NCBI GenBank assembly: GCA_041745895.1
Contig: JBGTIC010000438.1
Coordinates: 1 to 55,023 of the forward strand
DNA from: Gammaproteobacteria bacterium
GTDB lineage: Bacteria > Pseudomonadota > Gammaproteobacteria > Steroidobacterales > PWYM01
DNA: 55,023 bases
Direction: 5' to 3'
Shown here: piece by piece, positions 3,372 through 29,116 of the stretch
How the letters are laid out: each line of letters starts with the position of its first letter
How positions within the stretch are numbered: the first letter of the stretch is position 1
Notes under the pieces: model-generated
What the model saw: the letters and a program-made list of their open reading frames with translations, nothing else
Told to the model about the DNA's origin: nothing
Databases searched by the model: none
Made by a program: the position numbers and the translations under genes

Positions 3372-5265
3372 TATCGGCAAGGTTGCCCTTGGATTGCAGC
3401 CAATCGCGCCGGTCGCCCGAGCGCTTTTTCGCCAGCAGCATGTCGAGCATGCGCTCGGTGTCATCGGCCGCCTCGACGGTGAGCTGCACCAGGCGGCGCG
3501 TGTCCGGCGCCATCGTCGTCTCACGCAGCTGCCCGGCACTCATCTCGCCCAGACCTTTGAAGCGCGTGACGCTTACCTGGCCGCGACGCTTCTCTGCGGC
3601 GATACGGTCGAGGATGATGTCGCGCTCAGCGATGTCCAGCGCGTAGAAGACTTCCTTGCCCACATCGACACGAAACAATGGTGGCATGGCCATGTAAACA
3701 TGCCCGGCTGCTACCAACGGTCGATAATGACGCACGAATAGCGCGCACAGCAGCGTGGCGATGTGCAGGCCGTCGGAATCGGCGTCGGCGAGTATGCACA
3801 GCTTGTGATAGCGCAGTCGCGACAGATCCGGCGAGCCGGGGTCTACGCCGAGTGCTACGCTGATGTTGTGTACTTCCTGCGAGGCGAGGATGTCGCCGGA
3901 CTCCACCTCCCAGGTGTTGAGGATCTTGCCGCGCAGCGGCATCACGGCTTGCGTCTCGCGATCGCGTGCCTGTTTGGCAGAACCCCCGGCCGAATCACCC
4001 TCCACGAGAAACAGCTCCGAGCGCGCCGGATCCTGCGAGGTGCAGTCGGCGAGTTTGCCCGGCAGCGCGGGACCACTGACGATGCGCTTGCGCACGACCT
4101 GTCGGGCGGCCTTCATGCGGCGATGGGCATGACTGATGGCAAGCTCGGCGATCTGCTCGCCGGCCTCCGGGTGCTGGTTCAGCCATAGCGCGAAATGATC
4201 CTTGACTACACCCGCGACGAAGCCCGCGGCCTCTCTCGAGGCCAGACGCTCCTTGGTCTGGCCGGAAAACTGCGGTTCGGCAAGTTTCACCGACAACACG
4301 TAGCTGACCTGCTCCCAGACATCCTCGGGTGCCAGACGCAAACCCCGTGGCAACAGATTCCGGAACTCGCAGAACTCGCGCAGCGCCTCGGTCAGCCCCG
4401 AGCGCAGACCGTTGACATGCGTGCCTCCCTGCGCGGTGGGAATGAGATTGACGTAACTCTCGGCAACACTCCCGCCCTCGCCGGCCCGCCAGGCCACCGC
4501 CCATTCCAGCGCCTCGCGCGTGGCGTCGAAACTGCTGGCTAAAGGTTGGGCCGGAACGCGCTCGACATCCCCCATGGCCTCGGCCAGATACTCCGCCAGC
4601 CCGCCTTCATAACACCACTCGCTGACCTCGCCGCTCTTCTCCACAGTGAAGCGCACGCGCAGGCCCGGGCACAGCACGGCCTTGGCGCGCAGTACATGAG
4701 TGAGTCGACTGATCGAGAACTGCGCGGAGTCGAAATAGCTGGCGTCGGGCCAGAAGCGAATCGTCGTGCCGGTGTTGGCGCGCCCGACCTTGCCGACCTG
4801 CTCAAGATCCGAGGCTTTGTGACCGCCACGAAAGCTCATGTTGTACTCGACGCCACCGCGGCGGATCCAGATCTCGAGTGACTTGGAAAGCGCATTGACC
4901 ACGGACACACCCACGCCATGCAGGCCCCCGGAGAACTGGTAATGCTTGCCGGAGAATTTGCCGCCAGCATGCAGGCGCGTGAGGATCAGCTCCACACCCG
5001 GCATGTTTTCCTGTGGATGCATGTCCACCGGCATGCCGCGGCCGTCGTCGGCGACTTCGAGGGAGCCGTCGCGATGCAGCGTCACCTCGATGCTGCGCGC
5101 GTGGCCCGCGAGCGCCTCGTCCACCGAGTTGTCGATGACCTCGTGCGCCAGGTGGTTCGGACGAGTTGTATCGGTATACATGCCCGGGCGGCGACGCACG
5201 GGATCCAGGCCACTCAGGACTTCGATATCCGAGGCGTTGTAGCTGTTGCTCATGGAACTGCGCAT
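3361..5265 (-). CDS. parE: DNA topoisomerase IV subunit B
   Basis: GHKL ATPase and Toprim motifs: [70 protein letters not shown]. About 630 aa without the large GyrB insertion, and adjacent to parC. An alternative ATG at 5253 gives MSNSYNAS. Confidence 0.92.
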
Positions 5266-5384: not shown

Positions 5385-6917
5385 TCAGGCAAATTCAATG
5401 AGCTCCCGCCCCAGCAACCTGCCGAAGGCCAGGGCAGACATGACCGCCGTTCCGCCAGGCATTGACTTGCCGTTTACCTGACCCATGCCGAGCACTTCAC
5501 CGGCAGCATACAGATTCTGGATCGGCGAGCCATCCGCGCGGGTTACCCGCAATCGGCCGTCGACACCCAGTCCAGCGAAGCTGATCAGGTTCCAGCTGCT
5601 CAGCTGCACGGCGTAGAAAGGCCCGGCCTCAATCGGCAAAGGCATGTGCTGCCGGCCCAGCGCGTCGCGGCCCTCGGCGCGCCCGCGGTTGTATGCCGAC
5701 ACCGTCGCGATCAGCCCGCGGGGTTCGATACCCGCCTTGGTGGCCAAGGTGCCGAGGTCATCGGCGCGATAAAACATCGGCTCATTGTTGGCGAATGCGC
5801 GCTCTTCTTCTTCCGGTCCGAAGCTGCCGAAAAAACCTCCACCAAAAGCGAACTGCGGCGCGGCGCGGCGAATCGCCGAATCGTAAATGGCCCAGCATCG
5901 CTGATCGGGCAGCGTCGAGATGGCCTGCTCGTAGGCATCGTGGCTGGGGATATCTTCACGCAGAAACCGCTCGCCCTTGCCATCCACGAAGATCTCGTAA
6001 GGCGGGCGTTCGGGTGGGAAGTGCCGCGCCAGGGCACGAATACCGGTCGGCTCGTTGTAGTCAGCACGAATGGCGCCGAACAGCGGCGTATGAGTCTCGC
6101 CGCCGCGTACGTAGCCGCCCGCGGCAAGACCCAACTCGATGCCGATGCCCTTGCTCCATGGATAGGTTGCGCGCGAGTAGGTCTTCACACCCTCGTACTT
6201 AGCGAACATGTCGGGATTGGCTGTATAGCCACCGCAGGTCAGTGCCACTCGACGTCCTTGCTGTCGCACGGTGCGCCCATCGGGGCCCTTGAGGACCACT
6301 CCTGTCACGGTCCCCGTGCTGTTCTGCATCAGGTCAACCGCCTCGTGACTGGTCAGCACGGTGACCTGAGCGGACGCCACATGGGGTGCCAATTGTTCGT
6401 TCAGCACCTTGAGGATCGAGCGTCCGCCCTCCGGACCCCAGGCGTAGCGAGCACGGCTGTAGGGCTCGTGCGTGGTACCGGTAATCGGATGCCCGTCGAT
6501 CACCTCGAAACCGCAGTCCATCAGCCAGTCGAATGCTGCGGCCGAATTGTCCACAGAAAGTCGGAGCATCTCCGGGTCGGCCGTGCCCTTGCTGATCTCC
6601 ATGATATCGTCGTAGTGAGACTGCGCCGTATCCTTGATGCCGCGCGCGGCCTGCAGGCGCGTACCGGCTGCACTCATCTGGCCTGAGGACATGAACAGCG
6701 TACCGCCTACAGCGCCACCGGCTTCGACGACCAGCACCCGGGCACCACGCTGTGCGGCGAATATCGCCGTGGGCAGACCCGCGTTGCCTCCGCCCACGAC
6801 AATCAGGTCGTAATCGCTGCGGGCTGCGAAGGCGGCGTTGCCGGCACCGCCCAAGGTGGCTACAGTCGCGGCTGCCCCGGCCAGGCCGAGAAACTCACGC
6901 TTGGAGATTCTGGTCAT
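5385..6917 (-). CDS. Exported FAD-dependent oxidoreductase (fumarate reductase / KstD-like FAD_binding_2 type)
   Basis: Tat-like leader MTRISKREFLGLAGAAATVATLGG. Dinucleotide fold DLIVVGGGNAGLPTAIFAAQRGARVLVVE. C-terminal LYAAGEV..G flavoprotein motif. ATG at 6917; the ORF-track start at 6920 is GTG. Confidence 0.8.
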   Translation of the reverse strand: MTRISKREFLGLAGAAATVATLGGAGNAAFAARSDYDLIVVGGGNAGLPTAIFAAQRGARVLVVEAGGAVGGTLFMSSGQMSAAGTRLQAARGIKDTAQSHYDDIMEISKGTADPEMLRLSVDNSAAAFDWLMDCGFEVIDGHPITGTTHEPYSRARYAWGPEGGRSILKVLNEQLAPHVASAQVTVLTSHEAVDLMQNSTGTVTGVVLKGPDGRTVRQQGRRVALTCGGYTANPDMFAKYEGVKTYSRATYPWSKGIGIELGLAAGGYVRGGETHTPLFGAIRADYNEPTGIRALARHFPPERPPYEIFVDGKGERFLREDIPSHDAYEQAISTLPDQRCWAIYDSAIRRAAPQFAFGGGFFGSFGPEEEERAFANNEPMFYRADDLGTLATKAGIEPRGLIATVSAYNRGRAEGRDALGRQHMPLPIEAGPFYAVQLSSWNLISFAGLGVDGRLRVTRADGSPIQNLYAAGEVLGMGQVNGKSMPGGTAVMSALAFGRLLGRELIEFA

Positions 6918-6932
6918 CACAACTCCGACATG

Positions 6933-7856
6933 TTATTGATTCCGTGACTGCGGAACTTGAAAGCTCTCCAGACCCTCAGCGACCAAGCGCTTCACTTCGG
7001 CATCAAAGCGCGCTTGCCGTTCAATGAACGGCATGTGGCCGGTATCTTCGTAATAGGAAACGGCTGCCTGCGGCAGTTGTGGTATGAGCCCCTGAATGCC
7101 CTCGAGGCTTGCTGCGCGGTCCTGGCTGCCCACCATAAACAGAACAGGTAACTCCAGCTTCGACTTCAGATCAGCATTGTCCAAGCTACGCTGCACTATA
7201 ACCCCGCGTACTCTGGGACTAAGGAGCACGGCCGCAGCAACTTCCCGCTGTACAACATGCTCGTCCAGGGGCTGCACCACCATTCCTGTGACAAATTCCT
7301 GTGCTGCCAGGAATCTATCGCCCGCGTTGGCGGACATCGAGAGTCGCGTCATCCGCGCGAACCGCTCCATAGTGTCCGAATCGGGCGGCGGGAACGGCAA
7401 CATTCCTGCCGTGCTACCGACGAGCACTACACCAGAAAGATTGGCAGTGCCATGTTTTCGAACATAGTCCAGCGCAACGTGGCCTCCATACGACCAGGCG
7501 ACGATCCAGGGTTTTGTCAGGCCTGTGCCAGCGATAACCGCGGCTACATCGTCCGCCCAAAGCGCCGAATCGGCATAATCATCTGCATTCCAGGGATGCG
7601 CTGAATTTCCGTGCCCCCTGAGGTCGAACGCAGCGATGCGGTAATCTTCGGCCAACGACTCAAACTGCTGTAGCCAGCTGCTGGAACTCAGCGAAAACCC
7701 GTGGATGAACAGGATCTCCGGCTGCCCAGGCCGACCGGCGCTGATCACGTGCAGCGGCAAACCACCGCCCCCATAGACAGTTTCGCTCGTCAACCCTTCA
7801 GCCAACACTGGATGAGCCACGAAAGCGAGCATCCACAGAAGCATGCCTTTCCGCAT
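6933..7856 (-). CDS. Exported alpha/beta hydrolase
   Basis: Signal peptide MRKGMLLWMLAFVAHPVLA. Oxyanion region ILFIHGFSLSSSSW. Nucleophile elbow AWSYGG. C-terminal His in EDTGHMPF. Paralog of 30012-30941. Confidence 0.75.
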   Translation of the reverse strand: MRKGMLLWMLAFVAHPVLAEGLTSETVYGGGGLPLHVISAGRPGQPEILFIHGFSLSSSSWLQQFESLAEDYRIAAFDLRGHGNSAHPWNADDYADSALWADDVAAVIAGTGLTKPWIVAWSYGGHVALDYVRKHGTANLSGVVLVGSTAGMLPFPPPDSDTMERFARMTRLSMSANAGDRFLAAQEFVTGMVVQPLDEHVVQREVAAAVLLSPRVRGVIVQRSLDNADLKSKLELPVLFMVGSQDRAASLEGIQGLIPQLPQAAVSYYEDTGHMPFIERQARFDAEVKRLVAEGLESFQVPQSRNQ

Positions 7857-7946
7857 ACTTTTCACCTCACATAAACCGCTGCTTGCCAGCAAACCGCCCT
7901 TGGCCCAGCATCGATACCCCTGCCGCAGCCTCGCGTCTTCATCACG

Positions 7947-9395
7947 CTACATTTGTCCCAAGACTTCGACTGCTACGCGCTCACCCGACTCCATCGCGCC
8001 TTCCATGCCACGACTCACCTGGGCGGTGTGTTCACCACAGAAATGAACCCGACCGTGTGCCATGCCCACGTGTGGCGCCAAAGTGCTCACCTGCCCAGGC
8101 TTCCAGATCGCCCACCCGCCCCCCGCGAACGGATCGCGATACCAGGACTTGTATTCAACGACTTCAAGCTTGCCCTGCGAGGCAGGTCGACGCTTCGCCA
8201 GATCCGCAAGGACCAATGCGCGCGCCTCCGCTTCGGGTAGCTGGTCAAGGAATGCGGCTTTGCTTCCACGTACCCAGGCCGTGAGGCTGGTGACATCATC
8301 AGGCTCGGACCCATTGCGTTCGCCTACCAGGTTGCTTACCAGTCCGTCGCTGTACATGTTGGGGGAAAGGCCCTCTTCCTCCCAGAAAGGTGCCTTGCTG
8401 ACCATATGGATAAGGTTGACTGCTTGGGAATCCAGTGTCTGCACGGCGCGTGCCTGCGGTGTGGGCAGTGGCGGCCAGATTGAAATCCGACGCAGAACCG
8501 AGCAGGGAACAGAACAGACCACATGATCCGCCTTGTAAACCTGCCCGTCTGCAAACGTCACTTCAACCTGATCACCCACATCATGAATCGCTACGACACG
8601 TCGCTCCAGCTCTATGTCGTTTTTAAACGCGCGCGCCATCGCTTCCGGAATTGCCTGATTACCGCCTTCAGCGGTGAGAAACGGAGAGTCTCCGGGGCGT
8701 GCAGATTCCCTCTGATCGGTGAAAAACCTTGAGACAAACAGCATCATGAGCGCCGATACGTGGAATGCCGTGTCGCCATGCGACTGTTCCACGTCTGAAG
8801 TCACGCGAATGACATCGTCACTGACACCCTGCTGGCGCAGCCAGTCGTGGTAGGCGATGTCAAGGCCGCGATTCTCCGGTGCCAGCCACCCATCGAGCGA
8901 TGTCAGCGGATTCGCTTTCGTTGTCAGCTGACCCAGGTACGCCCACGGAGGCGTCTCCCGAGAATCTGCTGGGAAAGGATTTCTGGGATGCTCCGGCCAT
9001 TCCTGAAGCGGAATGTGCTTGCCGTCGAGAAAAATCTCGCGCCGCATCACATGGCTAATCACGGGTCTGCGGTCGACCAGCCCTACCCCATATTTGCGCA
9101 CGGCATCCAGAAGCCGCGCATACCCGTGCGCGAATCCAGTGCCGCCCGATTCAGGGGCACCGGGCAGCTCGCGAGCTGAACACACGCGTCCGCCCACTCG
9201 GCTACGGCCTTCAACCACACGGACATTCAAGCCTGACTGTTCGAGCAGGAGGGCGGCAGCAAGGCCCGACAGGCCTGCGCCGATAACCAGCACCTCGCTT
9301 CGGTTTTGCGACCGAAGCGCCCCTGGAGCCGCCATCAATGCGCCCGCTGCGCCCAGGGCTTTGAGCACCGAGCGCCGATTCGCTGAAGGCACCAT
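7947..9395 (-). CDS. Tat-exported flavin-containing amine oxidase family protein
   Basis: Leader NRRSVLKALGAAGALMAAPGA. FAD fold VLVIGAGLSGLAAALLLEQSGLNVRVVEGRSRVGGR. C-terminal HFCGEHTA..RGMEGAMESG typical of the MAO/amino-oxidase family. Paralog of 39503-40939. Confidence 0.8.
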   Translation of the reverse strand: MVPSANRRSVLKALGAAGALMAAPGALRSQNRSEVLVIGAGLSGLAAALLLEQSGLNVRVVEGRSRVGGRVCSARELPGAPESGGTGFAHGYARLLDAVRKYGVGLVDRRPVISHVMRREIFLDGKHIPLQEWPEHPRNPFPADSRETPPWAYLGQLTTKANPLTSLDGWLAPENRGLDIAYHDWLRQQGVSDDVIRVTSDVEQSHGDTAFHVSALMMLFVSRFFTDQRESARPGDSPFLTAEGGNQAIPEAMARAFKNDIELERRVVAIHDVGDQVEVTFADGQVYKADHVVCSVPCSVLRRISIWPPLPTPQARAVQTLDSQAVNLIHMVSKAPFWEEEGLSPNMYSDGLVSNLVGERNGSEPDDVTSLTAWVRGSKAAFLDQLPEAEARALVLADLAKRRPASQGKLEVVEYKSWYRDPFAGGGWAIWKPGQVSTLAPHVGMAHGRVHFCGEHTAQVSRGMEGAMESGERVAVEVLGQM

Positions 9396-10322
9396 CTAGC
9401 GACCCTCCTTGCCAACGGGTTTGCGGTTTTCCATGTAAACCGTGAACGAAGAATCGTTCGGAGAACCCCAACTTTCTGGGGACGGAGCCGTTAAAAACTC
9501 GGGGTAGTTTCTCGTCATATAGTCCAGAAGCTGCGGCGGTAGATTGGAAGCACGCCCGGTTTTCTGCATGAAGGTTCTATAGAGCAAATGCCCCTCGCTC
9601 TGTCCCATCAACATCCATGGCAACCAGGGACCAATCCGCAGCCAGGTACCGGTAAAGTCCGCCTGCGGCTCATCCGGGTCCGCCAATTGTGAGTAGCGCG
9701 CCGCTCGGTTGAACATCTCACTGGTCCTGTTTATACGGCCGGCACTTTCACGTGGCCATTCTTCCGGCGTCATGGGATTGGGGAAAGCGGCATGCAGCTC
9801 AAGCACGCTGAAGGCAGTGTCTTGCTGAATAAGCCATGGGGGCGCGAACGGAGTCTCAACAATGGTTCCGTCAAAGTCCTGCCTCCGGATCGGTGCAACT
9901 TCTGCAGTCACCGTGCGATTCAGAATAGGCAGCACGTGAACTGTTTCCTGATTCAGCGGATTGAACCAATGATCCAGATAGGCGCCTGTCTTCAAGTCCT
10001 TATATACCGCAAACTCGCGATTGAACATCCGGTATACATCACCGGACATCTGCTGAACTCGGTTGATGCCACACCCTTCCACACCAATCAGCGGCTCGAC
10101 CTTTTTCTGGTCTCCGATGACAGCGTAGATCGTGCCACCAAACCAACCGGTAGTTTCAACGGACGGATCCAGGTTTCCCACCAACTTGATGTAGGCTTTC
10201 AGGTTCTCAGCGGGATTGCTGAAATCGATCAGCGCCTCGCCGTGATCGTCTTTAGCCAGACGGCCTGCTGCACCGGCAGAGGCAATCGAGGAAGCACCGA
10301 TCAGGTTATTCAATAGCAGCAT
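9396..10322 (-). CDS. D1: exported protein of the 14-member DUF1838-like family (function unknown)
   Basis: Motifs NLKAYIKLVGNLD, YKDLKTGAYLDHWFNPLNQETVHV, WLPWMLMGQSEGHLLY. Its stop codon directly abuts the amine oxidase start (9395/9396). Hydrophobic N-terminus without RR. Confidence 0.8.
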   Translation of the reverse strand: MLLLNNLIGASSIASAGAAGRLAKDDHGEALIDFSNPAENLKAYIKLVGNLDPSVETTGWFGGTIYAVIGDQKKVEPLIGVEGCGINRVQQMSGDVYRMFNREFAVYKDLKTGAYLDHWFNPLNQETVHVLPILNRTVTAEVAPIRRQDFDGTIVETPFAPPWLIQQDTAFSVLELHAAFPNPMTPEEWPRESAGRINRTSEMFNRAARYSQLADPDEPQADFTGTWLRIGPWLPWMLMGQSEGHLLYRTFMQKTGRASNLPPQLLDYMTRNYPEFLTAPSPESWGSPNDSSFTVYMENRKPVGKEGR

Positions 10323-10329
10323 TCGACCC

Positions 10330-12186
10330 TCACAATTCCTCGGCCTGGGTATTGTTCATGACTGACAGCACAACGTTGGCAAGGTGTTCGGCAAGCCGAG
10401 GATCATCATTCATGGGCACCCAGAGACTCCATGTGCCGGTATATTGATCCTGGACCGGGGAATCGTTGTCGGGCGGTCCAAGCGCTGGGTCGTATCCCAG
10501 GTGCCCGAAGGGTGGCACATCGAAGACTATTTCCGGATCGAGCCTGCTGAGTGCCTGTCCCACCGGCGTCTGGCGAGTCTCGGGGTATCCATTGCCATCC
10601 GTGCAGCCCCCTAACTTGTAGCAACAGTCGTGGCTGACCCCTTGAGCACGCGCTGAGGGGCTTTTGTAGCAGATTCGTTGCGAATCAGGTGGCCAATGAT
10701 GCGCAAACGGACTGTCGTAGCCAGGCCAAAGAAGCACATCGAGATCAGACACGGGTACGAACCCCCGAAAGCCGATTTCCTGCGCGACCTGATTCGGCAG
10801 GCCCACCTGCCCCACTGTGGTTGTCACAATCACCTGCGGAAACACAACCACGATGTGCTTGACGCCGTTGTCCTTGAGCCGCTCGAGCGCCTCCCAGTAG
10901 CGCAGGCCCCACTTGCCCGGGGGCATCTGTGCATCTGAGCCGTAAAGATAAGCATGGCCCAGGTCTTCGCCGCGCATCTCCCGGGTACGCTGAAGCTTGC
11001 CATCGACCATCTGCTTGATGCCCTCCCAGGCACCCACGATATTGTCGGCTGACAGGGTCGGATGGCGGGTCAACAGGGCTTCCTGCAGATTTTCGTGAAG
11101 CGTTAGGGTGTCATCGATCTTGGGGTCAAATACTTCGTTACCTGGGAAAATGCCATGATTGTAGAGAAGCACACCCGTGTCAGCGGGTGATACGCTGGCG
11201 GACATGGCGCGCACAATTCCGTCGACCACAATTGATGCATACGCCGGATCATCGGTAACGGGATTACCGCGATTCTCAAGCACTACCTCTGGCGCATTAC
11301 GCGGCGCGCCCATCGATGCCGTCCAGTCGGCCGGCTCCTTGGGGTATGCCTCCATCATGAAGCCGGTGTAGTCGTTGGCCCAGACGATTGGAACCGAGCG
11401 GTTCGTGTCGCGCAGCGCGGCATCTCTGGCCCTGCCCAGCATTTTGTATACGTCAAGACTCTTCGAGAAACGGATCCCGCCCACGGCGGTATCGACGATG
11501 ACTATTTTTTCAACACCGGCTCGCAGCAGCCGATCCATTGGTCCGTCGACGTTGTAGCGCTCCGGGTCGCACAGCGGCCAGCGCCCGTCTGGCTGGGCTC
11601 CACCGTCTGTTGAACCACCGCAGTAACGCATGGCGATCTCAGACGCTCCATCCTGGTTGTAGATGAATCGAGGGTAAGGCAGCGACCCCACATCAGCAGA
11701 TCCAGCAATCCAGCCGACCCAATCCACGACAAACTGGGTATTCGTAGAGGTTGCCGCCCCATCCAATGCGGCTTGCAAGGAAACCACCTGGGCCTCTGTG
11801 ACTTGCGTGACCGGCTCCAGATCACCAATCCGCCCCAGCTGGAAGCTGTACTTGCGGGTTAGCCCGAGGAGTTCTGAGGCCTGCTCAGTGTTGTGGAGGG
11901 GTAGCACGCTGGGCCAGTTCTCCGGCTGCCAGATGATATTCTGATATACGTAGGAGTTGGGATCATAGGATGCCATCTGAATACCGGCATCAAAGAAATT
12001 TGAGAAATTCAGCGACCTTGCGCCACCGTGAACCAGATACAGAACCCCGATCTTTTGTGTATCACCGTTACTCTCAGCCAGGCCCTCCGAAGGAGAGAAT
12101 AGTTGTGCCGAAAAAAGTAACGCCAACAGCACGGCATAAGCGCGACAAGTCGCAATGACCCGGCTGGATCTGTCAAGGAATTGCAT
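10330..12186 (-). CDS. Exported 618-aa protein of unknown function (ferrochelatase/CbiX-like motif pattern; Cys-rich C-part)
   Basis: Signal-like N-terminus. VLYLVHGG, IAMRYCGG...LLRAGVEKIVIVDTAVGG, LLYNHGIFPG, WGLRYWEALERLKDNGVKHIVVVFPQVIVTTT. Five Cys in CYKSPSARAQGVSHDCCYKLGGC. Close paralog of 14097-15956. Confidence 0.75.
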   Translation of the reverse strand: MQFLDRSSRVIATCRAYAVLLALLFSAQLFSPSEGLAESNGDTQKIGVLYLVHGGARSLNFSNFFDAGIQMASYDPNSYVYQNIIWQPENWPSVLPLHNTEQASELLGLTRKYSFQLGRIGDLEPVTQVTEAQVVSLQAALDGAATSTNTQFVVDWVGWIAGSADVGSLPYPRFIYNQDGASEIAMRYCGGSTDGGAQPDGRWPLCDPERYNVDGPMDRLLRAGVEKIVIVDTAVGGIRFSKSLDVYKMLGRARDAALRDTNRSVPIVWANDYTGFMMEAYPKEPADWTASMGAPRNAPEVVLENRGNPVTDDPAYASIVVDGIVRAMSASVSPADTGVLLYNHGIFPGNEVFDPKIDDTLTLHENLQEALLTRHPTLSADNIVGAWEGIKQMVDGKLQRTREMRGEDLGHAYLYGSDAQMPPGKWGLRYWEALERLKDNGVKHIVVVFPQVIVTTTVGQVGLPNQVAQEIGFRGFVPVSDLDVLLWPGYDSPFAHHWPPDSQRICYKSPSARAQGVSHDCCYKLGGCTDGNGYPETRQTPVGQALSRLDPEIVFDVPPFGHLGYDPALGPPDNDSPVQDQYTGTWSLWVPMNDDPRLAEHLANVVLSVMNNTQAEEL

Positions 12187-12267
12187 GCTGTTGAAGCTCC
12201 ATCCAATACAAGTTCGCGAGTATCACTTAATCCACATCAACGGAGTCCATCTACCAAGTCTGACGCG

Positions 12268-13203
12268 CTAGCGACTCTTTACTCCGACCGGCTTCCTGTT
12301 TTCCATGTAAACCGTGAACGACGAATCGTTCGGAGAACCCCAGCTTTCTGGGGACGGAGCCGATAAAAACTCGGGGTAGTTTCTCGTCATATAGTTCAGA
12401 AGCTGCGGTGGTAGATTGGAAGCACTGCCGGTTTTCTGCATGAAGGTTCTATAGAGCAGATGCCCCTGGCTTTGCCCCATCAACATCCATGGCAACCAGG
12501 GACCCACCCGCACCCAGGTACCGGTGTGGTCAGCCTGCGGTTGATCGGGATCGGCTAACTGTGCGTAGCTAGCTGCTCGGTTAAACATCTCACTGGTTCT
12601 ATTGATGCGACCGGCACTTTCACGCGGCCATTCTTCCGGCGTCATGGGATTGGGAAAAGCGGCGTGCAGCTCAAGCACGCTGAAGACAGTGTCTTGCTGA
12701 ACAAGCCATGGGGGCGTGAACGGAGTCTCCACCATGGTCCCATCAAAGTCCTGCCTCATGATCGGTGCAACTTCTGCATTCACCGTCCGATTCATGATAG
12801 GAAACACATCGACTGTTTCCTGGTTCAAGGGATTGACCCAATGATCCAGATAGGCGCCCGTCGCCAGGTCCTTATACACGGCAAACTCGCGATTGAAGAT
12901 CCGGTATACACCATCACCTACCTGCTGTGTTCGATTGACGCCACAGCCCTCCACACCAATCAGCGGCTCGACCTTTTTCTGATCTCCAATGACAGCGTAG
13001 ATCGTGCCACCAAACCAACCGGCTACTTCAACGGACGGATCGAGACTTCCCATCAACTTGACGAAAGCTTTCAGGTTTTCGGAGGGATTGCTGAAGTCGA
13101 TCAGCCCGTTGGCTCTATTGTGTTCTGCCAGACCTTTGGCGCCGGTTGCCGTAGCAGCAGAGGCAATCATCGAAGCACCGATCAAGTTGTTCAGCAGCAG
13201 CAT
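12268..13203 (-). CDS. D2: DUF1838-like family protein, near-duplicate of D1
   Basis: Collinear with D1 along its whole length (YKDLATGAYLDHWVNPLNQETVDV, WLPWMLMGQSQGHLLY). The DNA is also highly similar to D1. Confidence 0.8.
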   Translation of the reverse strand: MLLLNNLIGASMIASAATATGAKGLAEHNRANGLIDFSNPSENLKAFVKLMGSLDPSVEVAGWFGGTIYAVIGDQKKVEPLIGVEGCGVNRTQQVGDGVYRIFNREFAVYKDLATGAYLDHWVNPLNQETVDVFPIMNRTVNAEVAPIMRQDFDGTMVETPFTPPWLVQQDTVFSVLELHAAFPNPMTPEEWPRESAGRINRTSEMFNRAASYAQLADPDQPQADHTGTWVRVGPWLPWMLMGQSQGHLLYRTFMQKTGSASNLPPQLLNYMTRNYPEFLSAPSPESWGSPNDSSFTVYMENRKPVGVKSR

Positions 13204-13207
13204 TCGA

Positions 13208-14083
13208 CTAAACCTCCGCGTCGGTAAAGCTGTCTACATTCAGATGGTCTGGATACTCTGCCTCGATGCGCTTCCGGTAGGGGTGCGGAAGATCCTCTAC
13301 AGACGCAAGCTTCGCCCCCGAGGCGTGCCAAACCAGGTGACCGGGCCGATCGCCCATATCCAGCCAGTCTGACCAAGGCGCAAAGAAAGACACGGTAAAC
13401 GCAGCCGGCAGACGCCTTCGATTCTTGTCAGCAAAATGATCTGTTCTGACAATCTGCGTCTGTCTCTGCTTGCGCGGTTGCTGGAGTCCGGGAGGATAGA
13501 CGGTCTCGTTGTGCAGCCATACGAAACCTCCGGCCTCCGTCCACCAAAGATCCAGCGGCGCATCTGGAATCTGGTCGGCAACCCACCGCGGCCGAACACC
13601 ACTGGTCTGATAGAGAAACCCGCGGTCGCCGCTTATCTGGCTCAAGGCCGGCACCTCAACAGTCTTTCCTGTGAGCGGGTTTTCCATTTCGTGCAACCAT
13701 TCGCCGGTCGCGATATCCGTGAAAAACGTGACGGTCGCGCCCTTCATGAGGAAGCCACCGGAACGCAGGCGCCTCATCTTGTATATCTCCATACCTTGCA
13801 GCCGCATCAACTCCAGGGGCGCTGCACCGTCGGTAACCGCATAGATAGATCCGTTGTAGAACCACGGCGTATCCTCCGGATCGAGACTGGCCGTAATTCG
13901 AACGAGGTTCTCCAGGTTCTCCTCCGGTGTGACGGGCAAGGCAAGACCGTCGACGCGAGGAGCATTTGCCGTAGACGCCACCGCGCCGAAGACCGGCAGG
14001 AATCCCAAGCCTGCGGCACCCGCACCCCCGAGCGCTGTGCGCCTGCTGATACGCGCGTCGGGCGTTTTACTTGAGTTCGTCAT
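13208..14083 (-). CDS. D3: Tat-exported DUF1838-like family protein
   Basis: Leader ISRRTALGGAGAAGLG. FTDIATGEWLHEMENPLTGKTVEV. WSDWLDMGDRPGHLVWHASG. ATG at 14083, just after the upstream stop at 14097. Confidence 0.8.
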   Translation of the reverse strand: MTNSSKTPDARISRRTALGGAGAAGLGFLPVFGAVASTANAPRVDGLALPVTPEENLENLVRITASLDPEDTPWFYNGSIYAVTDGAAPLELMRLQGMEIYKMRRLRSGGFLMKGATVTFFTDIATGEWLHEMENPLTGKTVEVPALSQISGDRGFLYQTSGVRPRWVADQIPDAPLDLWWTEAGGFVWLHNETVYPPGLQQPRKQRQTQIVRTDHFADKNRRRLPAAFTVSFFAPWSDWLDMGDRPGHLVWHASGAKLASVEDLPHPYRKRIEAEYPDHLNVDSFTDAEV

Positions 14084-14096
14084 AAGAGCGTCTTCC

Positions 14097-15956
14097 TCAC
14101 AATTCCTGGGCCTGGGCATTGTTCATGACTGCCAGCACGACGTTGGCAAGGTGTTCGGCAAGCCGGGGATCATCGTTCATGGGCACCCAGATACTCCATG
14201 TACCGGTATATTGATTCTGGACCGGGGCATCGTTGTCGGGCGGTCCAAGCGCTGGGTCGTATCCCAGGTGGCCGAACGGTGGCACATCGAAGACTATTTC
14301 CGGATCCAGCCTGCTGAGTGCCTGTCCTACCGGCGTTTGGCGAGTCTCGGGGTATCCATTGCCATCAGCGCATCCCCCTAACTTGTAGCAACAGTCGTGG
14401 CTGACCCCTTGCGCACGCGCTGAGGGGCTTTCGTAGCAGACTCGGTCCGAATCAGGCGGCCAGTGATGCGCAAACGGACTATCGTAGCCAGGCCACAGCA
14501 GAACATCGAGATCTGACACGGGTACGAACCCGCGAAAGCCGATTTCCTGCGCTATCTGATTCGGCAGGGTCACCTGCCCCCCTGTGGATGTAACAATCAC
14601 CTGCGGAAACACGACCACGATGTGCTGGACGCCGCTGTCCTTGAGGCGCTCGAGCGCCTCCCAGTAGCGCAAGCCCCACTTGCCCGGGGGCATCTGAGCA
14701 TCTGACCCGTAAAGGTAAGCATGCCCCAGGTCTTCGCCGCGCATCTCCCGGGTACGCTGAAGCTTGCCATCGACCATCTGCCTGATCCCCTCCCAGGCGC
14801 CTACGATATTGTCTGCGGACATGGTCGGATGGAGGGTCAACAGGGCTTCCTGCAAATTTTCGTGAACCGTTATGGTGTCATCGATCTTGGGGTCAAATAC
14901 TTCGTTACCAGAATAGATTCCATGATTGTAAAGAAGCACACCAGTGTCAGCGGGCGATACGCTGGCGGACATGGCGCGCACAATTCCGTCGACCACGATT
15001 GACGCATACGCTGGATCATCGGTCACCGGATTACCGCGGTTCTCAAGCGCTACCTTTGGCGCACTGGGCGGCGCGCCCATCGACGCCGTCCAGCCGGCCG
15101 GCTCCTTGGGGTATGCCTCCATCATGAAGCCGGTGTAGTCGTTGGCCCAAACGATCGGCACCGAGCGGTTCGTGTCGCGCAGCGCGGCATCTCTGGCCCT
15201 GCCCAGCATTTTGTATACATCAAGACTTTTAGAAAAGCGGATACCGCCCACGGCGGTATCGACGACAATTATCCTGTCAACGCCCGCTTGCAGAAGACGA
15301 TCCACTGGTCCGTCCACGTTATAGCGCTCCGGGTCACACAGCGGCCAGCGCCCGTCTGGCTGAGCGCCACCGTCTGTTGAACTGCCGCAGTAACGCATGG
15401 CAATCTCGGACTCGCCATCCTGGTTGTAGATGAAGCGAGGGTAAGGCAGCGACCCCACATCAGATGATCCGGTAATCCAGGCCACCCAATCCACGACAAA
15501 CTGCGTATTCGTAGTGGCTGCCGCCCGATCCAATGCGGCTTGCAGGGAAACCACCTGAGCCTCAGTGACTTGCGTGACCGGCTCAATACTGCCTGCTCGT
15601 CCCAGCTTGAAGATGGACTTGCGGAGCAAGCCAAGAAATTCTGAGGCCTGCCGACCGGCACTGAGCGGCACTACGCGATGCCAGTTCTCCGGCTGCCATA
15701 TAGTATTTTTATATCCCGCGGAGTTCTCATCATAGGATGCCATCTGTATACCGGCATCGAAGAAATTGGAGTAGTTGATCGATCTGTGGCCACCGTGAAC
15801 CAGGTACAGGACTCCAACTTTTTGTGAGTTACTACTTTCGTCCGCAAGAACCTGAGGCGGAGAAAGCAGTTGCGCCGAAAGCAGCAATACCGCAAGCAAA
15901 ACATGAAAGCGGTAGGACACAATGACGACCAGGTGTTTCCTGTATAGAGATGACAT
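14097..15956 (-). CDS. Exported ~619-aa protein, paralog of 10330-12186
   Basis: Same motif series as the 618-aa protein, and the C-terminal ~500 nt are nearly identical at DNA level. ATG at 15956 (MSSLYRKHLVV...); the ORF-track start at 15992 is TTG. Confidence 0.75.
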   Translation of the reverse strand: MSSLYRKHLVVIVSYRFHVLLAVLLLSAQLLSPPQVLADESSNSQKVGVLYLVHGGHRSINYSNFFDAGIQMASYDENSAGYKNTIWQPENWHRVVPLSAGRQASEFLGLLRKSIFKLGRAGSIEPVTQVTEAQVVSLQAALDRAAATTNTQFVVDWVAWITGSSDVGSLPYPRFIYNQDGESEIAMRYCGSSTDGGAQPDGRWPLCDPERYNVDGPVDRLLQAGVDRIIVVDTAVGGIRFSKSLDVYKMLGRARDAALRDTNRSVPIVWANDYTGFMMEAYPKEPAGWTASMGAPPSAPKVALENRGNPVTDDPAYASIVVDGIVRAMSASVSPADTGVLLYNHGIYSGNEVFDPKIDDTITVHENLQEALLTLHPTMSADNIVGAWEGIRQMVDGKLQRTREMRGEDLGHAYLYGSDAQMPPGKWGLRYWEALERLKDSGVQHIVVVFPQVIVTSTGGQVTLPNQIAQEIGFRGFVPVSDLDVLLWPGYDSPFAHHWPPDSDRVCYESPSARAQGVSHDCCYKLGGCADGNGYPETRQTPVGQALSRLDPEIVFDVPPFGHLGYDPALGPPDNDAPVQNQYTGTWSIWVPMNDDPRLAEHLANVVLAVMNNAQAQEL

Positions 15957-16209
15957 ACCCTCAACGCTCCGCCGAGTGGCCGTTTTGCTCAATTGGCCTA
16001 TCTAAATTAACAATTTACAGATCTGACATAGCACCCCCATGTGAGCATAGGATTTCCGCCAAGACTAATGAGTACCAGATGGCGCCCCATCACTTCTATG
16101 CATATTGCACTCAGCGCATGAACGGCCCTTTTTTTGAAGCTCCACGATCGACTAGGCCAGGGTTGCCCAGCCCGAAGAAACTGGCGGCCAATATTATCGG
16201 CAACAGGTG

Positions 16210-17133
16210 TCATTCATCAGCTGCATCGCTGACGCTATGTCCATAGTCTCGCGCGGCTTCGCGTACGAGCTGCATCAGCCGTTCAACCGCCCCGCTACGG
16301 GGTCTGCCGCGCAGAAAGATCAATCCTGCCCGCCGTCTCAAGCGGGGCATTGCCACGTCCAGCACACAAACTTTCCCGCGACGTATTTCGTCGTGCATGA
16401 CACCGCTGGCCATAAAGGCCAGGTGGCTGCCATCGGAGACTAGTAGCCTCACCAACGCCAGCGAATCAGTTCTCAATATGGGCGGCGGTGACAAACCGGA
16501 GGTCTCGAACAGCTGCATGAGCACATCCCGCGGCTCGGTCCTGTCGATGACGACCCAGCGCGATTCCGCCATTTGCTGTAGTTGAATCTGCGTGGTCTGT
16601 GCCAGAGGATGATGGGTGGCTGCAAACACGTTCACGTGCAGGTCCAGAAGCGGCTCGACCACAAAGTCACCGTCGATCGGGGACTGTGTAAAATTGGTCA
16701 GCGCGAAGTCAATCTGACCAGTACGCATCAGCCCCAATAGGTCTTCGAAGTAGCCCTCTGTGACCGTCACGTTGACGTTCGGCATCTGCACACTGGTACT
16801 TTTGGCCGCTTCAAAAGCGATGGAGCCGCCAAACACTGTCGCAATCCCCATCGCCACATGCCCCGCAACGCCGTCACGAAACATGTGAATTTCACGTTGG
16901 GCGCGGTCGCAGTCCTGCAGAATCATGCGCGCGTAGTCGAGAAACAACTCGCCTTCGCGTGTCAGCGATGCACCTCGCGGGCCACGCTCCATCAAACGGG
17001 TCTCAAGCTGACGTTCCAATGCCTTGAGACTTCGCGTGAGTGCCGGTTGGGTCAAGTGCACCCGCCGTGCTGCGCTGGAGAAGTTGCTTTCCTCCGCGAT
17101 CGCGACGAAATGACGCAACTGACGTAATTCCAT
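16210..17133 (-). CDS. LysR-family transcriptional regulator
   Basis: MELRQLRHFVAIAEESNFSSAARRVHLTQPALTRSLKALE winged-HTH followed by a LysR substrate domain. Divergent from the aldehyde dehydrogenase gene. Confidence 0.9.
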   Translation of the reverse strand: MELRQLRHFVAIAEESNFSSAARRVHLTQPALTRSLKALERQLETRLMERGPRGASLTREGELFLDYARMILQDCDRAQREIHMFRDGVAGHVAMGIATVFGGSIAFEAAKSTSVQMPNVNVTVTEGYFEDLLGLMRTGQIDFALTNFTQSPIDGDFVVEPLLDLHVNVFAATHHPLAQTTQIQLQQMAESRWVVIDRTEPRDVLMQLFETSGLSPPPILRTDSLALVRLLVSDGSHLAFMASGVMHDEIRRGKVCVLDVAMPRLRRRAGLIFLRGRPRSGAVERLMQLVREAARDYGHSVSDAADE

Positions 17134-17409
17134 CGAGCAAGTATAACCCGTCCTCATAGCCGCTAACGCACAATTCAGTGTTCTTTTCGCAACTCAACCC
17201 GCACTATCCTGCCATGACCCCGTCGGACACAATTTTCATACCGATCCAACCGCGCCAAGGGGAGGCGAACTCCATACCTGCTTTTCCGGCGCTTGCGAGG
17301 CTCTACTGCCGATTGCCGGGTTTGCTGGGCGCGCAGCGTTCTGGAACGCCCAGGCGCCAAGGCTATGAAGCATCAATCGATGTGAAGTCATTCCACTCGA
17401 GGACTTGTT

Positions 17410-18924: not shown

Positions 18925-18955
18925 TGAACGAAAGTCCTTCAATGGGGGGCATCAG

Positions 18956-22738: not shown

Positions 22739-22778
22739 TTCTCTCACAGGCAACTATCTGCACTTTCTGGAGGCATCA

Positions 22779-29109: not shown

Positions 29110-29116
29110 GTTCGCG

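What the first reader, a model, noticed from the sequence alone, without database searches (positions are those of the whole stretch)
5385..15992. Nine-gene minus-strand string in which every product carries an export signal
Gene order on the minus strand is: 631-aa protein, D3, D2, 618-aa protein, D1, flavin amine oxidase, alpha/beta hydrolase, FAD oxidoreductase. Gaps range from 0 to about 90 nt. The D1 stop abuts the oxidase start at 9395/9396, and D3/D2 are 4 nt apart. Each protein begins with a Tat-like or Sec-like leader, including both flavoproteins (NRRSVLKALGAAG and SKREFLGLAGAAA). No inner-membrane transporter, cytoplasmic enzyme or TonB/ExbBD gene is interleaved. The same holds for the strings at 28171-31807, 32061-38611 and 38648-45872. 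Together with the two TBDRs, this reads as a pathway confined to the periplasm: import across the outer membrane, then oxidation or hydrolysis there.
Basis: partly seen in the sequence, partly recalled or inferred. Interest (0 to 1): 0.7.

Follow-up and report, generated by a model that had tools for sequence, protein, structure and literature searches.

The report
Exported enzyme operon with unknown partners
A tightly packed eight-gene operon encodes mostly exported enzymes built around a conserved four-gene core of two uncharacterised protein families and an amine oxidase; two of its proteins have lost their export signal, so the pathway is probably not confined to the periplasm.

Summary
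The string at 5385-15992 (minus strand) is real, but it holds eight genes, not nine.

Six products have credible leaders:
- Sec-type: the two 618/619-aa proteins and the alpha/beta hydrolase.
- Twin-arginine (Tat) type: D3, the amine oxidase, and the FAD protein (a KR variant).

D1 and D2 have no RR motif and no basic n-region. Their more distant orthologues carry a Tat leader, which this clade has lost.

The core is a module found in five independent genomic contexts. It consists of protein "A", a Tat-DUF1838, a leaderless DUF1838 4-23 nt downstream, and a Tat amine oxidase of the monoamine-oxidase (MAO) type. "A" has no Pfam or PDB sequence match, but its predicted fold resembles ferrochelatase (class II chelatase). 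In this window, A plus the leaderless DUF1838 were duplicated in tandem.

The surrounding 40 kb holds 14 DUF1838 paralogues and 16 twin-arginine leaders.

"Periplasm-only" overreaches. Cytoplasmic enzymes flank the operon: an aldehyde dehydrogenase and a monooxygenase-esterase fusion. MFS transporters sit beside the core in relatives.

My best reading is an exported front end of an amine-compound catabolic pathway. The leaderless DUF1838 possibly exits by Tat hitchhiking. The substrate is unknown.

The parts
14097..15992 (-). A2: 619-aa protein (probable start ATG 15956; ORF from TTG 15992 gives 631 aa). Orphan 'A' family with a Sec-type leader.
   Evidence: No Pfam or NCBIfam hit. 85% identical to A1. 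Leader is MSSLYRKHLVVIVSYRFHVLLAVLLLSAQLLSPPQVLA, with RBS GAGGGT before ATG 15956.
13208..14119 (-). D3 ('Da'): DUF1838 with a twin-arginine leader. Probable start is ATG 14083.
   Evidence: PF08894, E 2e-22. Leader contains ...ARISRRTALGGAGAAGLGF. Orthologues in L001, L084, L086 and L090 all carry RR leaders.
12268..13203 (-). D2 ('Db'): DUF1838 without an RR or basic n-region. It lies 4 nt after D3, with an RBS GGAGG inside the D3 3' end.
   Evidence: PF08894, E 1e-44. N-terminus is MLLLNNLIGASMIASAATATGAKG. The leader was lost in this clade. AF2 model is a beta-barrel, pLDDT 89, with residues 1-21 disordered.
10330..12186 (-). A1: 618-aa orphan 'A' family protein with a Sec-type leader and a predicted class II chelatase-like fold.
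   Evidence: No Pfam, NCBIfam or PDB sequence hit. AF2 model has pLDDT 83 and pTM 0.85. The top 44 Foldseek hits are ferrochelatases, E down to 2e-8. H53, H344, H444 and six Cys are invariant.
9396..10322 (-). D1: second copy of Db (leaderless DUF1838). It lies 7 nt after A1, and its stop abuts the oxidase start.
   Evidence: PF08894, E 3e-43. About 81-85% identical to D2, depending on the method; dS 0.46, dN/dS 0.20. N-terminus is MLLLNNLIGASSIASAGAAGRLAKDD.
7947..9395 (-). AO1: flavin amine oxidase of the MAO / putrescine-oxidase type, with a twin-arginine leader.
   Evidence: PF01593, E 1e-57, plus a weak TAT_signal hit. Best PDB relatives are MAO-B, putrescine oxidase and L-amino-acid oxidase, E 1e-29 to 1e-26, not protoporphyrinogen oxidase. 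RR is kept in 118 of 120 homologues.
6933..7892 (-). ABH1: alpha/beta hydrolase with a Sec-type leader. Probable start is ATG 7856.
   Evidence: Abhydrolase_1, E 2.5e-25. Leader is MRKGMLLWMLAFVAHPVLA, with RBS GAGGTG. It is also present after the oxidase in L084 and L085.
5385..6920 (-). FAD2: flavoprotein similar to fumarate reductase / urocanate reductase, with a Tat-like leader carrying KR instead of RR.
   Evidence: FAD_binding_2, E 1e-52. Best PDB relatives are the flavin domain of Shewanella flavocytochrome c fumarate reductase and urocanate reductase, E 1e-40 to 1e-33. A 33-residue extension, MTRISKREFLGLAGAAATVATLGGAGNAAFA, precedes the Rossmann motif. Relatives elsewhere are either leaderless or lipoproteins.
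16210..17157 (-). LysR-type regulator directly upstream on the same strand. Probable regulator of the string.
   Evidence: HTH_1 plus LysR_substrate domains. It is divergent from the aldehyde dehydrogenase at 17410-18924.

Best explanation
The string is one operon that encodes the exported front end of a catabolic pathway for an unidentified amine-containing organic compound.

Architecture (shown):
- The conserved core is A, Da, Db and AO.
  - A is a Sec-exported protein with a chelatase-like fold.
  - Da is a Tat-exported DUF1838 beta-barrel.
  - Db is a leaderless DUF1838 beta-barrel, probably translationally coupled to Da.
  - AO is a Tat-exported FAD amine oxidase of the MAO type.
- In this genome, A plus Db were duplicated in tandem, giving A2-D3-D2-A1-D1-AO1.
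- An exported alpha/beta hydrolase and a Tat-type fumarate-reductase-like flavoprotein were added downstream.

Mechanism (inferred):
1. A TonB-dependent receptor brings the substrate into the periplasm.
2. The oxidase converts an amine to an imine or aldehyde. O2 is the likely electron acceptor, because no cytochrome c gene is nearby.
3. The hydrolase and the flavoprotein trim ester or amide bonds and C=C bonds.
4. The DUF1838 barrels act as ligand-binding or specificity partners rather than as enzymes with a shared catalytic site.
5. Products then enter the cytoplasm. There the neighbouring aldehyde dehydrogenase and the monooxygenase-esterase fusion continue the pathway.
6. Db probably reaches the periplasm by binding Da and hitchhiking on its Tat leader.

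The role of A is unknown. Its fold and invariant histidines suggest it binds or processes a metal or a macrocycle-like ligand.
For: Operon structure: eight co-directional genes with gaps of 0-90 nt, and Shine-Dalgarno-like GA/G-rich motifs before the probable starts that were read.

Export: RR or Sec leaders on six of eight products. These leaders are conserved in homologues.

Conserved core: A-Da-Db-AO occurs in five contexts with different flanks. These are the window, L001-L003, L084/L085, L086 and L090. In every case Da carries RR, and a leaderless Db follows 4-23 nt downstream.

Age of the pair: a Da-Db pair in which both members keep RR exists in L092. The pair is therefore older than the loss of the Db leader.

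Duplication: A1/A2 and D1/D2 have the same age and are under purifying selection (dS 0.39 and 0.46; dN/dS about 0.2).

Enzyme types:
- The oxidase is MAO/putrescine-oxidase-like.
- FAD2 resembles periplasmic fumarate and urocanate reductases.
- No CxxCH motif falls in any of the genes assigned in the window. [quoted passage not shown]

DUF1838 as a binding partner: among 17 aligned DUF1838 sequences (the 14 window paralogues plus three leaderless relatives), apart from the initiator Met only P125, W239, M242, G247 and P265 are invariant. None of these is a typical catalytic residue.

Second oxidase: AO2 is likewise flanked by DUF1838 genes. D3's closest paralogue, at 38648, is one of them.

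Cytoplasmic continuation. MFS transporters lie beside the core in L001 and L086.

Hitchhiking precedents: PaoABC (PMC4273604) and the FAD-glucose dehydrogenase gamma-alpha complex (PMC6719666).
Against: - No substrate can be named.
- No signal-peptide predictor was run.
- No expression data exist for this locus.
- D1 has no Da gene of its own, so its export would depend on D3 or on another partner.
- The window copies of Db keep a 14-16-residue uncharged N-terminal stretch. Weak Sec targeting cannot be excluded.
- Twelve of the 14 DUF1838 paralogues use Tat. That could instead mean they bind a cofactor in the cytoplasm, which would argue against a passive ligand-binding role.
- In distant genomes, A is only sometimes near DUF1838 (22 of 80 loci) or near an amine oxidase (about 6 of 80). 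Its function is therefore not tied to this pathway.
- No TonB-dependent receptor lies inside the string. In this window the nearest is about 8.5 kb away.
Confidence: 0.5

Rival explanations
1. Periplasmic handling of a metal chelate or tetrapyrrole. In this reading, a TonB-dependent receptor imports a metal-ligand complex such as a siderophore, haem or a chlorophyll-derived pigment. The chelatase-fold protein A removes or inserts the metal. The DUF1838 barrels carry the macrocycle or ligand, and the oxidase and hydrolase destroy the organic ligand.
For: - The A model matches ferrochelatases and CpfC, with Foldseek probability 1.0 and E down to 2e-8. It also matches the periplasmic CbiK 2xvx more weakly.
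- Invariant His residues sit directly after the first strand of each domain: VHGG H53 and NHG H344. Judging from recalled motifs, these are the topological positions of the CbiX/SirB and HemH metal-binding histidines. No superposition was done.
- Six invariant Cys fit an oxidising compartment.
- Weak fold matches of DUF1838 include the haem-binding nitrobindin barrel and a haemophore.
- TonB-dependent receptors sit next to the core in L001 and L084.
Against: - A shows no sequence similarity to any chelatase, even with a profile search.
- TM-scores are only 0.52-0.69 on the target and 0.30-0.41 on the query.
- The oxidase is MAO-like, not protoporphyrinogen-oxidase-like.
- No Fur box scores above shuffled controls. 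The local regulator is LysR-type.
- No inner-membrane metal or haem ABC transporter is present in the window.
- The DUF1838 fold matches have TM 0.2-0.3, which is at noise level.
- The contexts of A in other genomes vary widely.
Confidence: 0.15
2. Split-compartment system. Here D1 and D2 stay in the cytoplasm. They act as a sensor, a substrate-binding protein, or a chaperone for the Tat-exported partners, while the other six products work in the periplasm.
For: - D1 and D2 lack RR and any basic n-region.
- Orthologues in the same clade have polar or acidic N-termini.
- A whole DUF1838 clade of 275-278 aa starts directly at the mature domain and is clearly cytoplasmic. Streptomyces members of 248 aa also occur in biosynthetic clusters.
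- The short N-terminal motif ML.(S/N)SLL is conserved both in RR-bearing orthologues and in the leaderless clade, so it may have a function of its own.
Against: - The leaderless Db always lies 4-23 nt after an RR-bearing Da, inside an operon of exported proteins.
- In L092 both members of the Da-Db pair are exported, so the ancestral site of action is the periplasm.
Confidence: 0.2
3. Periplasmic maturation or tailoring of a secreted metabolite rather than catabolism. The model would be periplasmic pyoverdine maturation by PvdM/N/O/P/Q.
For: - The island is dominated by exported oxidoreductases and hydrolases.
- An FGE-sulfatase-domain protein is present in it (45934-47130). From memory, PvdO has this fold.
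- Periplasmic pyoverdine maturation is described in PMC9305348, which appeared in the literature search.
Against: - No NRPS, PKS or other biosynthetic core gene is present, and no exporter is in the window.
- TonB-dependent receptors, a LysR-aldehyde dehydrogenase pair, a monooxygenase-esterase fusion, and amidase-type hydrolases (CN_hydrolase, beta-lactamase fold) are typical of catabolic islands.
Confidence: 0.05

Closest known systems
NicA2 / Pnao / CycN periplasmic nicotine oxidation in Pseudomonas putida S16, and the Tat-bearing flavoprotein amine oxidoreductases surveyed in PMC12224317
   Same: Both involve flavin amine oxidase family enzymes with twin-arginine leaders, exported to the periplasm as the first steps of amine catabolism. 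An aldehyde dehydrogenase acts downstream.
   Different: No cytochrome c gene lies anywhere in the 55-kb window. AO1 is closer to MAO-B and putrescine oxidase than to NicA2. AO1 is embedded with DUF1838 and A proteins, which the nicotine system lacks.
Class II chelatases: ferrochelatase HemH/CpfC, CbiK including the periplasmic CbiK of Desulfovibrio (2xvx), and CbiX/SirB
   Same: The predicted two-domain alpha/beta fold of A matches them. A histidine follows the first strand of each domain. Like periplasmic CbiK, A is exported.
   Different: A has no detectable sequence similarity to them. It is about 250 residues longer, with large insertions and a Cys-rich C-terminal part. It occurs in no tetrapyrrole-synthesis context. 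No activity is known.
Tat 'hitchhiker' co-export: hydrogenase small/large subunits, PaoABC (PMC4273604), FAD-glucose dehydrogenase gamma-alpha (PMC6719666)
   Same: One partner carries the twin-arginine leader. The adjacent, probably translationally coupled partner has none.
   Different: Here the two partners are paralogues of one beta-barrel family with no known cofactor. The complex and its co-export are inferred only from gene order and from the loss of the leader.
Periplasmic flavocytochrome c fumarate reductase and urocanate reductase of Shewanella
   Same: FAD2 shares the FAD_binding_2 catalytic domain (E 1e-40 to 1e-33) and is also exported.
   Different: FAD2 has no haem or FMN-binding electron-input domain. 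Its electron partner is unknown.
TonB-dependent-receptor-centred utilisation loci (polysaccharide utilisation loci; periplasmic siderophore processing such as PfeE)
   Same: Both combine outer-membrane import with periplasmic enzymes encoded together.
   Different: There is no SusD-like protein and there are no glycoside hydrolases. The enzymes here are flavoproteins and hydrolases accompanied by many DUF1838 barrels. Most of the products use Tat rather than Sec.

Membership tests
DUF1838 (PF08894) | Match to the Pfam profile above the gathering score (25 bits). | tested here: met
   D1 scores 148.6 bits, D2 153.6 and D3 80.3. Eleven further paralogues in the window score 40-116 bits.
Flavin amine oxidase (PF01593), MAO / putrescine-oxidase branch | Full-length match to the Amino_oxidase profile, with an N-terminal GxGxxG FAD motif. 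| tested here: met
   AO1 scores 196.9 bits over profile positions 1-443 of 443. Its best PDB relatives are MAO-B, putrescine oxidase and L-amino-acid oxidase.
Flavin amine oxidase (PF01593), MAO / putrescine-oxidase branch | Amine-oxidising activity and substrate identity. | not testable with these tools
   No characterised close homologue was found. The source names are generic ('monoamine oxidase', 'FAD-dependent oxidoreductase').
Cytochrome-c-dependent amine dehydrogenases (NicA2/Pnao type) | A Tat leader plus an adjacent Sec-exported cytochrome c gene (the criteria of PMC12224317). | tested here: not met
   The Tat leader is present. However, no CxxCH motif falls in any of the genes assigned in the window.
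Class II chelatase (ferrochelatase / CbiK / CbiX) | A two-domain Rossmann-like alpha/beta fold. | tested here: met
   The AF2 model has pLDDT 83. The top 44 Foldseek hits are ferrochelatases, with probability 1.0 and TM on target 0.52-0.69.
Class II chelatase (ferrochelatase / CbiK / CbiX) | Sequence-level homology to a chelatase family (Pfam Ferrochelatase, CbiK or CbiX). | tested here: not met
   No hit was found in Pfam, NCBIfam or PDB, either with the single sequence or with a profile. A profile search of 1.84 billion representatives listed only strong full-length matches and shorter partial matches; none was compared with a chelatase.
Class II chelatase (ferrochelatase / CbiK / CbiX) | Catalytic His (and Glu) at the metal site, and chelatase activity. 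| tested here: inconclusive
   Invariant H53 and H344 follow the first strand of each domain. That position matches the recalled HemH and CbiX motifs. No residue-level superposition could be made, and no activity is known.
Tat substrates | An N-terminal S/T-R-R-x-F-L-K-like motif, followed by a moderately hydrophobic region and an A-x-A site. | tested here: met
   D3 has SRRTAL, AO1 has NRRSVL, and FAD2 has SKREFL (a KR variant). The motif is conserved in 118 of 120 AO homologues. No predictor was run and no experiment exists.
Tat substrates | The same motif in D1 and D2. | tested here: not met
   Neither has RR or KR, and the net charge is 0. The RR segment is deleted relative to orthologues.
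Tat hitchhiker pairs | A physical complex between a leader-bearing and a leaderless partner, with co-export that depends on that leader. | not testable with these tools
   Only indirect evidence exists: a 4-23 nt spacing in five loci, and leader loss in Db alone.

The most novel reading that the evidence does not exclude
DUF1838 proteins would be a new class of Tat-exported periplasmic beta-barrel partner subunits. In the conserved core, a leader-bearing barrel and a leaderless barrel would form a heterodimer that leaves the cell by hitchhiking. That heterodimer would then work with the orphan chelatase-fold protein A and a periplasmic amine oxidase as one functional unit. For example, it might deliver substrate to the flavoenzyme or accept its electrons, replacing the cytochrome c used by NicA2-type enzymes. 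The 14 paralogues and 16 twin-arginine leaders in 40 kb would then represent a modular, Tat-based counterpart of a polysaccharide utilisation locus for nitrogenous organic matter.
Probability: 0.2. Interest if true: 0.8.

Novelty: new variant of a known kind. Interest (0 to 1): 0.55.

Why it matters
Three points go beyond routine annotation.

First, the operon gives genomic context to two protein families with no known function.
- DUF1838 appeared in only two papers in the library searched, and only as a table entry in each.
- The roughly 600-aa 'A' family has no Pfam model. It has a compact sequence space and a chelatase-like predicted fold.

Second, 16 twin-arginine leaders within 40 kb is an unusually dense cluster of Tat substrates. 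From memory, E. coli has fewer than 30 in its whole genome. This makes the island a good test bed for asking why a cofactor-less beta-barrel family should need Tat.

Third, the repeated pairing of a leader-bearing and a leaderless paralogue is a concrete, testable candidate for a new natural Tat hitchhiker pair.

The homologues come mainly from metagenome-assembled genomes of uncultured Gamma- and Alphaproteobacteria and Thermodesulfobacteriota. The system may therefore matter for the turnover of nitrogen-containing organic matter in those environments.

Tried and rejected
- Haem-biosynthesis-like pair. I considered that A plus AO1 might resemble HemH plus HemY. I rejected this because AO1's PDB relatives are MAO-B, putrescine oxidase and L-amino-acid oxidase, not protoporphyrinogen oxidase.
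- Iron regulation. The best Fur-box match is 13 of 19, the same as in shuffled sequence.
- Cytochrome c partner. No CxxCH motif falls within any real gene.
- Promoter and terminator scans gave counts at or below the shuffle expectation, so they were uninformative.
- PDB sequence searches found nothing significant, with either single sequences or profiles of A and DUF1838.
- Fold searches of the DUF1838 model gave only weak barrel matches, against both PDB and viral structures. Hits included PsbO, porins and nitrobindin at TM 0.2-0.3. I did not assign a fold family. The viral search was a wasted job.
- Literature search on periplasmic ferrochelatase-like proteins linked to TonB-dependent transport returned nothing relevant.
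- One look-up (P0040, Oceanicoccus) had no record.
- Hydropathy alone did not separate leaderless Db from RR-bearing orthologues (median 1.33 versus 1.62). The call therefore rests on loss of the RR and of the basic residues.
- Taxonomy could not be fixed beyond 'uncultured Gammaproteobacteria-like'.

Full report
**1. What is there**

The minus strand between 5385 and 15992 carries eight ORFs, not nine:

| Gene | Coordinates | Size / note |
|---|---|---|
| A2 | 14097-15992 | 619 aa from the probable ATG at 15956 |
| D3 | 13208-14119 | probable ATG at 14083 |
| D2 | 12268-13203 | |
| A1 | 10330-12186 | 618 aa |
| D1 | 9396-10322 | |
| AO1 | 7947-9395 | |
| ABH1 | 6933-7892 | probable ATG at 7856 |
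| FAD2 | 5385-6920 | |

The D1 stop TAG is followed directly by the AO1 ATG. D3 and D2 are 4 nt apart. The other gaps are 7, 12-13, 81 and 54-90 nt. Consensus promoter and terminator scans were no better than shuffled sequence.

**2. Family assignments**

- D1, D2 and D3 are DUF1838 (PF08894).
- AO1 is a flavin amine oxidase. Its best solved relatives are MAO-B, putrescine oxidase and L-amino-acid oxidase.
- ABH1 is an alpha/beta hydrolase.
- FAD2 has the FAD_binding_2 domain. It is closest to the flavin domains of Shewanella periplasmic fumarate reductase and urocanate reductase.
- A1 and A2 match nothing in Pfam, NCBIfam or PDB by sequence.

**3. Export signals**

No signal-peptide predictor was available. 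I used motif, charge, hydropathy and conservation in homologues.

*Credible leaders on six of eight products:*
- A1 and A2 have positively charged n-regions, followed by strongly hydrophobic stretches and A-x-A-like sites.
- ABH1 starts MRKGMLLWMLAFVAHPVLA.
- D3 has SRRTALGG.
- AO1 has NRRSVLKALG.
- FAD2 has SKREFLGLAG, a KR variant, on a 33-residue extension before its Rossmann motif.

*Conservation supports these calls:*
- 118 of 120 AO1 homologues keep RR ahead of the GxGxxG motif.
- 105 of 115 A homologues have a hydrophobic leader, and about 25 have a lipobox-like one.

*D1 and D2 are different:*
- They begin MLLLNNLIGAS..., with no RR or KR and zero net charge.
- D2 homologues at about 45-65% identity typically start 'ML.sSL....RR..L...' followed by a hydrophobic region. 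That is a Tat leader with an unusually conserved n-region.
- The 66-82% clade containing D1 and D2 keeps the first eight or so residues but has lost the RR segment. Several members are polar or acidic there, e.g. MMLLNSLLEAATAYYADENTAGG and MLLLNSLLDAATARYADSDTPGG.
- A further DUF1838 clade of 275-278 aa starts directly at the mature domain. DUF1838 proteins therefore exist on both sides of the membrane.

The statement that every product carries an export signal is thus wrong for two of the eight.

**4. A conserved core and a duplication**

The closest relatives of A1 lie in loci with the order A, DUF1838 (286-294 aa, RR leader), DUF1838 (307-311 aa, leaderless), amine oxidase (495-496 aa, RR leader). 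This order occurs in four further contexts with different flanking genes:
- L001-L003
- L084/L085
- L086
- L090

L084 continues with an alpha/beta hydrolase, a TonB-dependent receptor, parE and parC. That is the same chromosomal neighbourhood as the window, where parE and parC lie at 1110-5265.

The leaderless barrel always starts 4-23 nt after the leader-bearing one. In L092 an equivalent pair exists in which both members keep RR leaders. The pair is therefore older than the loss of the leader.

In the window, A and the leaderless barrel are present twice:
- A1/A2 are 85% identical, with dS 0.39.
- D1/D2 are about 81-85% identical depending on the method, with dS 0.46.
- Both pairs have dN/dS of about 0.2.

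The second copy lacks its own leader-bearing barrel.

**5. The A family**

- A word-indexed search found at least 360 homologues. The named ones listed are all called 'hypothetical protein', and none listed has a Pfam domain. They come mainly from uncultured Gamma- and Alphaproteobacteria and Thermodesulfobacteriota.
- 181 loci were confirmed in species-representative genomes.
- A full profile search of 1.84 billion representatives returned only 186 hits. About eight of these are full-length clusters, and the rest of those listed are shorter partial matches. The family appears compact and isolated in sequence.
- An alignment of 33 members shows 47% mean column identity. It has many invariant Arg, Asp and Trp residues, three invariant His (H53, H344, H444) and six invariant Cys.
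- The AlphaFold2 model has pLDDT 83 and pTM 0.85.
- Its top 44 Foldseek hits in the PDB are all ferrochelatases or coproporphyrin ferrochelatases. E-values run from 2e-8 to 2e-5, probability is 1.0, and TM on the target is 0.52-0.69. The periplasmic CbiK 2xvx is a weaker hit.
- H53 (VHGG) and H344 (NHG) each follow the first strand of a domain. As I recall the HemH 'SAHSLP' and CbiX 'GHGS' motifs, that is where class II chelatases place their metal-binding histidines. I could not superpose the structures, so this remains an inference.

I therefore describe A as having a chelatase-like fold. I do not file it as a chelatase.

Its genomic contexts elsewhere vary. Neighbours include Rieske/VanA oxygenase, CN_hydrolase, an MFS transporter, ccm genes and an aldehyde:ferredoxin oxidoreductase. 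DUF1838 lies within 8 kb in 22 of 80 loci. An AO1-like oxidase is present in about 6 of 80.

**6. DUF1838**

- The D2 model (pLDDT 89) is a closed beta-barrel with flanking helices and a disordered N-terminus.
- PDB and viral fold searches gave only weak barrel matches at TM 0.2-0.3 (PsbO, nitrobindin, a haemophore, porins). No solved relative is evident.
- The literature library mentions DUF1838 only as table entries in two Streptomyces gene-cluster papers.
- The window contains 14 paralogues. All are 20-44% identical to each other except D1/D2.
- Twelve of the 14 carry RR leaders.
- Across 17 aligned sequences (the 14 paralogues plus three leaderless relatives), apart from the initiator Met only P125, W239, M242, G247 and P265 are invariant. 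The frequent His of the 'PGH' motif is replaced in four paralogues. This pattern fits a ligand-binding or partner role better than a shared catalytic site.
- The second amine oxidase, AO2 (39503-40957), is flanked by DUF1838 genes on both sides. One of them, at 38648, is D3's closest paralogue at 37% identity. The pairing of DUF1838 with an amine oxidase therefore occurs twice in this window.

**7. The wider island**

- Adding AO1, AO2, the CN_hydrolase and FAD2 to the 12 RR-bearing barrels gives 16 twin-arginine leaders in about 40 kb.
- Two TonB-dependent receptors are present at 24496-26865 and 33047-35398.
The exception is the beta-lactamase-fold protein, whose N-terminus looks like an uncleaved membrane anchor.
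- The string's LysR gene (16210-17157) is divergent from a leaderless aldehyde dehydrogenase.
- That gene is followed by one uninterrupted 1260-aa ORF. It joins a Baeyer-Villiger-type monooxygenase, an HSL-type esterase and a flavin hydroxylase. A methyltransferase follows.
- These leaderless, probably cytoplasmic enzymes, together with the MFS transporters and the FMO-like gene beside the core in L001 and L086, argue that the pathway continues in the cytoplasm.

**8. How it probably works**

*Shown:*
- The operon architecture.
- Leaders on six products.
- The conserved four-gene core.
- The tandem duplication.
- The enzyme classes.

*Inferred:*
- A receptor imports an amine-containing compound.
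- AO1 oxidises it in the periplasm. O2 is the likely acceptor, because no cytochrome c gene is present. Tat-bearing amine oxidases that lack an adjacent cytochrome c mostly reacted rapidly with O2 in vitro, as periplasmic oxidases would (PMC12224317).
- ABH1 and FAD2 process ester or amide bonds and C=C bonds.
- The DUF1838 barrels bind the substrate or partner the enzymes.
- Products pass to the cytoplasmic aldehyde dehydrogenase and monooxygenase-esterase.
- The leaderless barrel most likely exits bound to its leader-bearing neighbour. PaoABC and the FAD-glucose dehydrogenase gamma-alpha complex do this (PMC4273604 and PMC6719666).

*Rivals:*
- A metal-chelate or tetrapyrrole processing system centred on A.
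- A split-compartment system in which D1 and D2 stay in the cytoplasm.
- Periplasmic tailoring of a secreted product.

Evidence for and against each is given in the rival-explanations section of this report.

**9. Verdict**

The operon encodes an exported front end of a pathway, not one confined to the periplasm.

- an orphan family with a chelatase-like fold;
- a very dense cluster of Tat-exported DUF1838 paralogues;
- a recurring leader-bearing/leaderless paralogue pair.

Function and substrate remain unknown. I rate the finding moderately interesting, as a new variant of a known kind.

Noticed in passing
window 18860-22738 (+): One uninterrupted ORF of about 1260 aa from the Met at codon 33. 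It joins a Baeyer-Villiger/FMO-type monooxygenase, an Abhydrolase_3 (HSL-type) esterase and a FAD_binding_3 hydroxylase, with no stop codons between them and no leader. It is either a natural three-enzyme fusion or genes that happen to share a frame.
   Followed up: partly
window 28171-45872: Eleven further DUF1838 paralogues lie here, making 14 in the window. They are 20-44% identical to each other, and all 11 have RR leaders. Counting AO1, AO2, the CN_hydrolase and FAD2, the window has 16 twin-arginine leaders in about 40 kb.
   Followed up: partly
window 38648-41860 (-): A second Tat-type amine oxidase, AO2 (39503-40957), is flanked on both sides by DUF1838 genes. The one at 38648 is D3's closest paralogue, at 37% identity. 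This repeats the DUF1838-oxidase pairing seen in the string.
   Followed up: partly
window 1110-5265 (-) and L084 9500-12441: parE and parC lie directly downstream of the string. The closest related contig, L084, has A-Da-Db-AO-hydrolase-TBDR-parE-parC. The module therefore sits at the same chromosomal site in relatives. There, a TonB-dependent receptor occupies the position that FAD2 holds here.
   Followed up: yes
D2 homologues P0132-P0240: RR-bearing D2 orthologues share a conserved N-terminal segment before the twin arginines (ML.sSL..a...RR). This is unusual for a Tat n-region. The leaderless clade keeps this segment but not the RR.
   Followed up: no
window 35438-36667 (+): This beta-lactamase-fold protein begins MGRTYRVIAVLAAVTLVVTAAILVDW. 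That looks like an uncleaved membrane anchor rather than a cleavable signal peptide.
   Followed up: no
window 45934-51211 (+): A run of genes encodes an FGE-sulfatase-domain protein with a long hydrophobic N-terminus, a Sec-leader DUF3604 protein (672 aa), a PPIC-type rotamase and a HupE/UreJ membrane protein. It may be a separate metal-related periplasmic cluster.
   Followed up: no
window 22776-24011: Two mirror-image 410-aa ORFs lie on opposite strands. Only the plus-strand ORF has a domain: a methyltransferase at residues 181-327, behind an N-terminal extension of about 180 residues with no match.
   Followed up: no
L087 5827-8785; L088 7001-15706: In distant genomes the A-family gene appears in other contexts. 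In L087 it lies 10 nt after a Rieske/VanA oxygenase gene and near a CN_hydrolase, an MFS transporter and a DUF1838. In L088 it lies a few kb from a ccm cytochrome-c maturation operon.
   Followed up: no
window 27011-28096 (+): A 361-aa protein has a C-terminal LytTR DNA-binding domain and an uncharacterised N-terminal 260 residues. It lies between TBDR1 and the first of the other DUF1838 strings, and may be a second regulator of the island.
   Followed up: no
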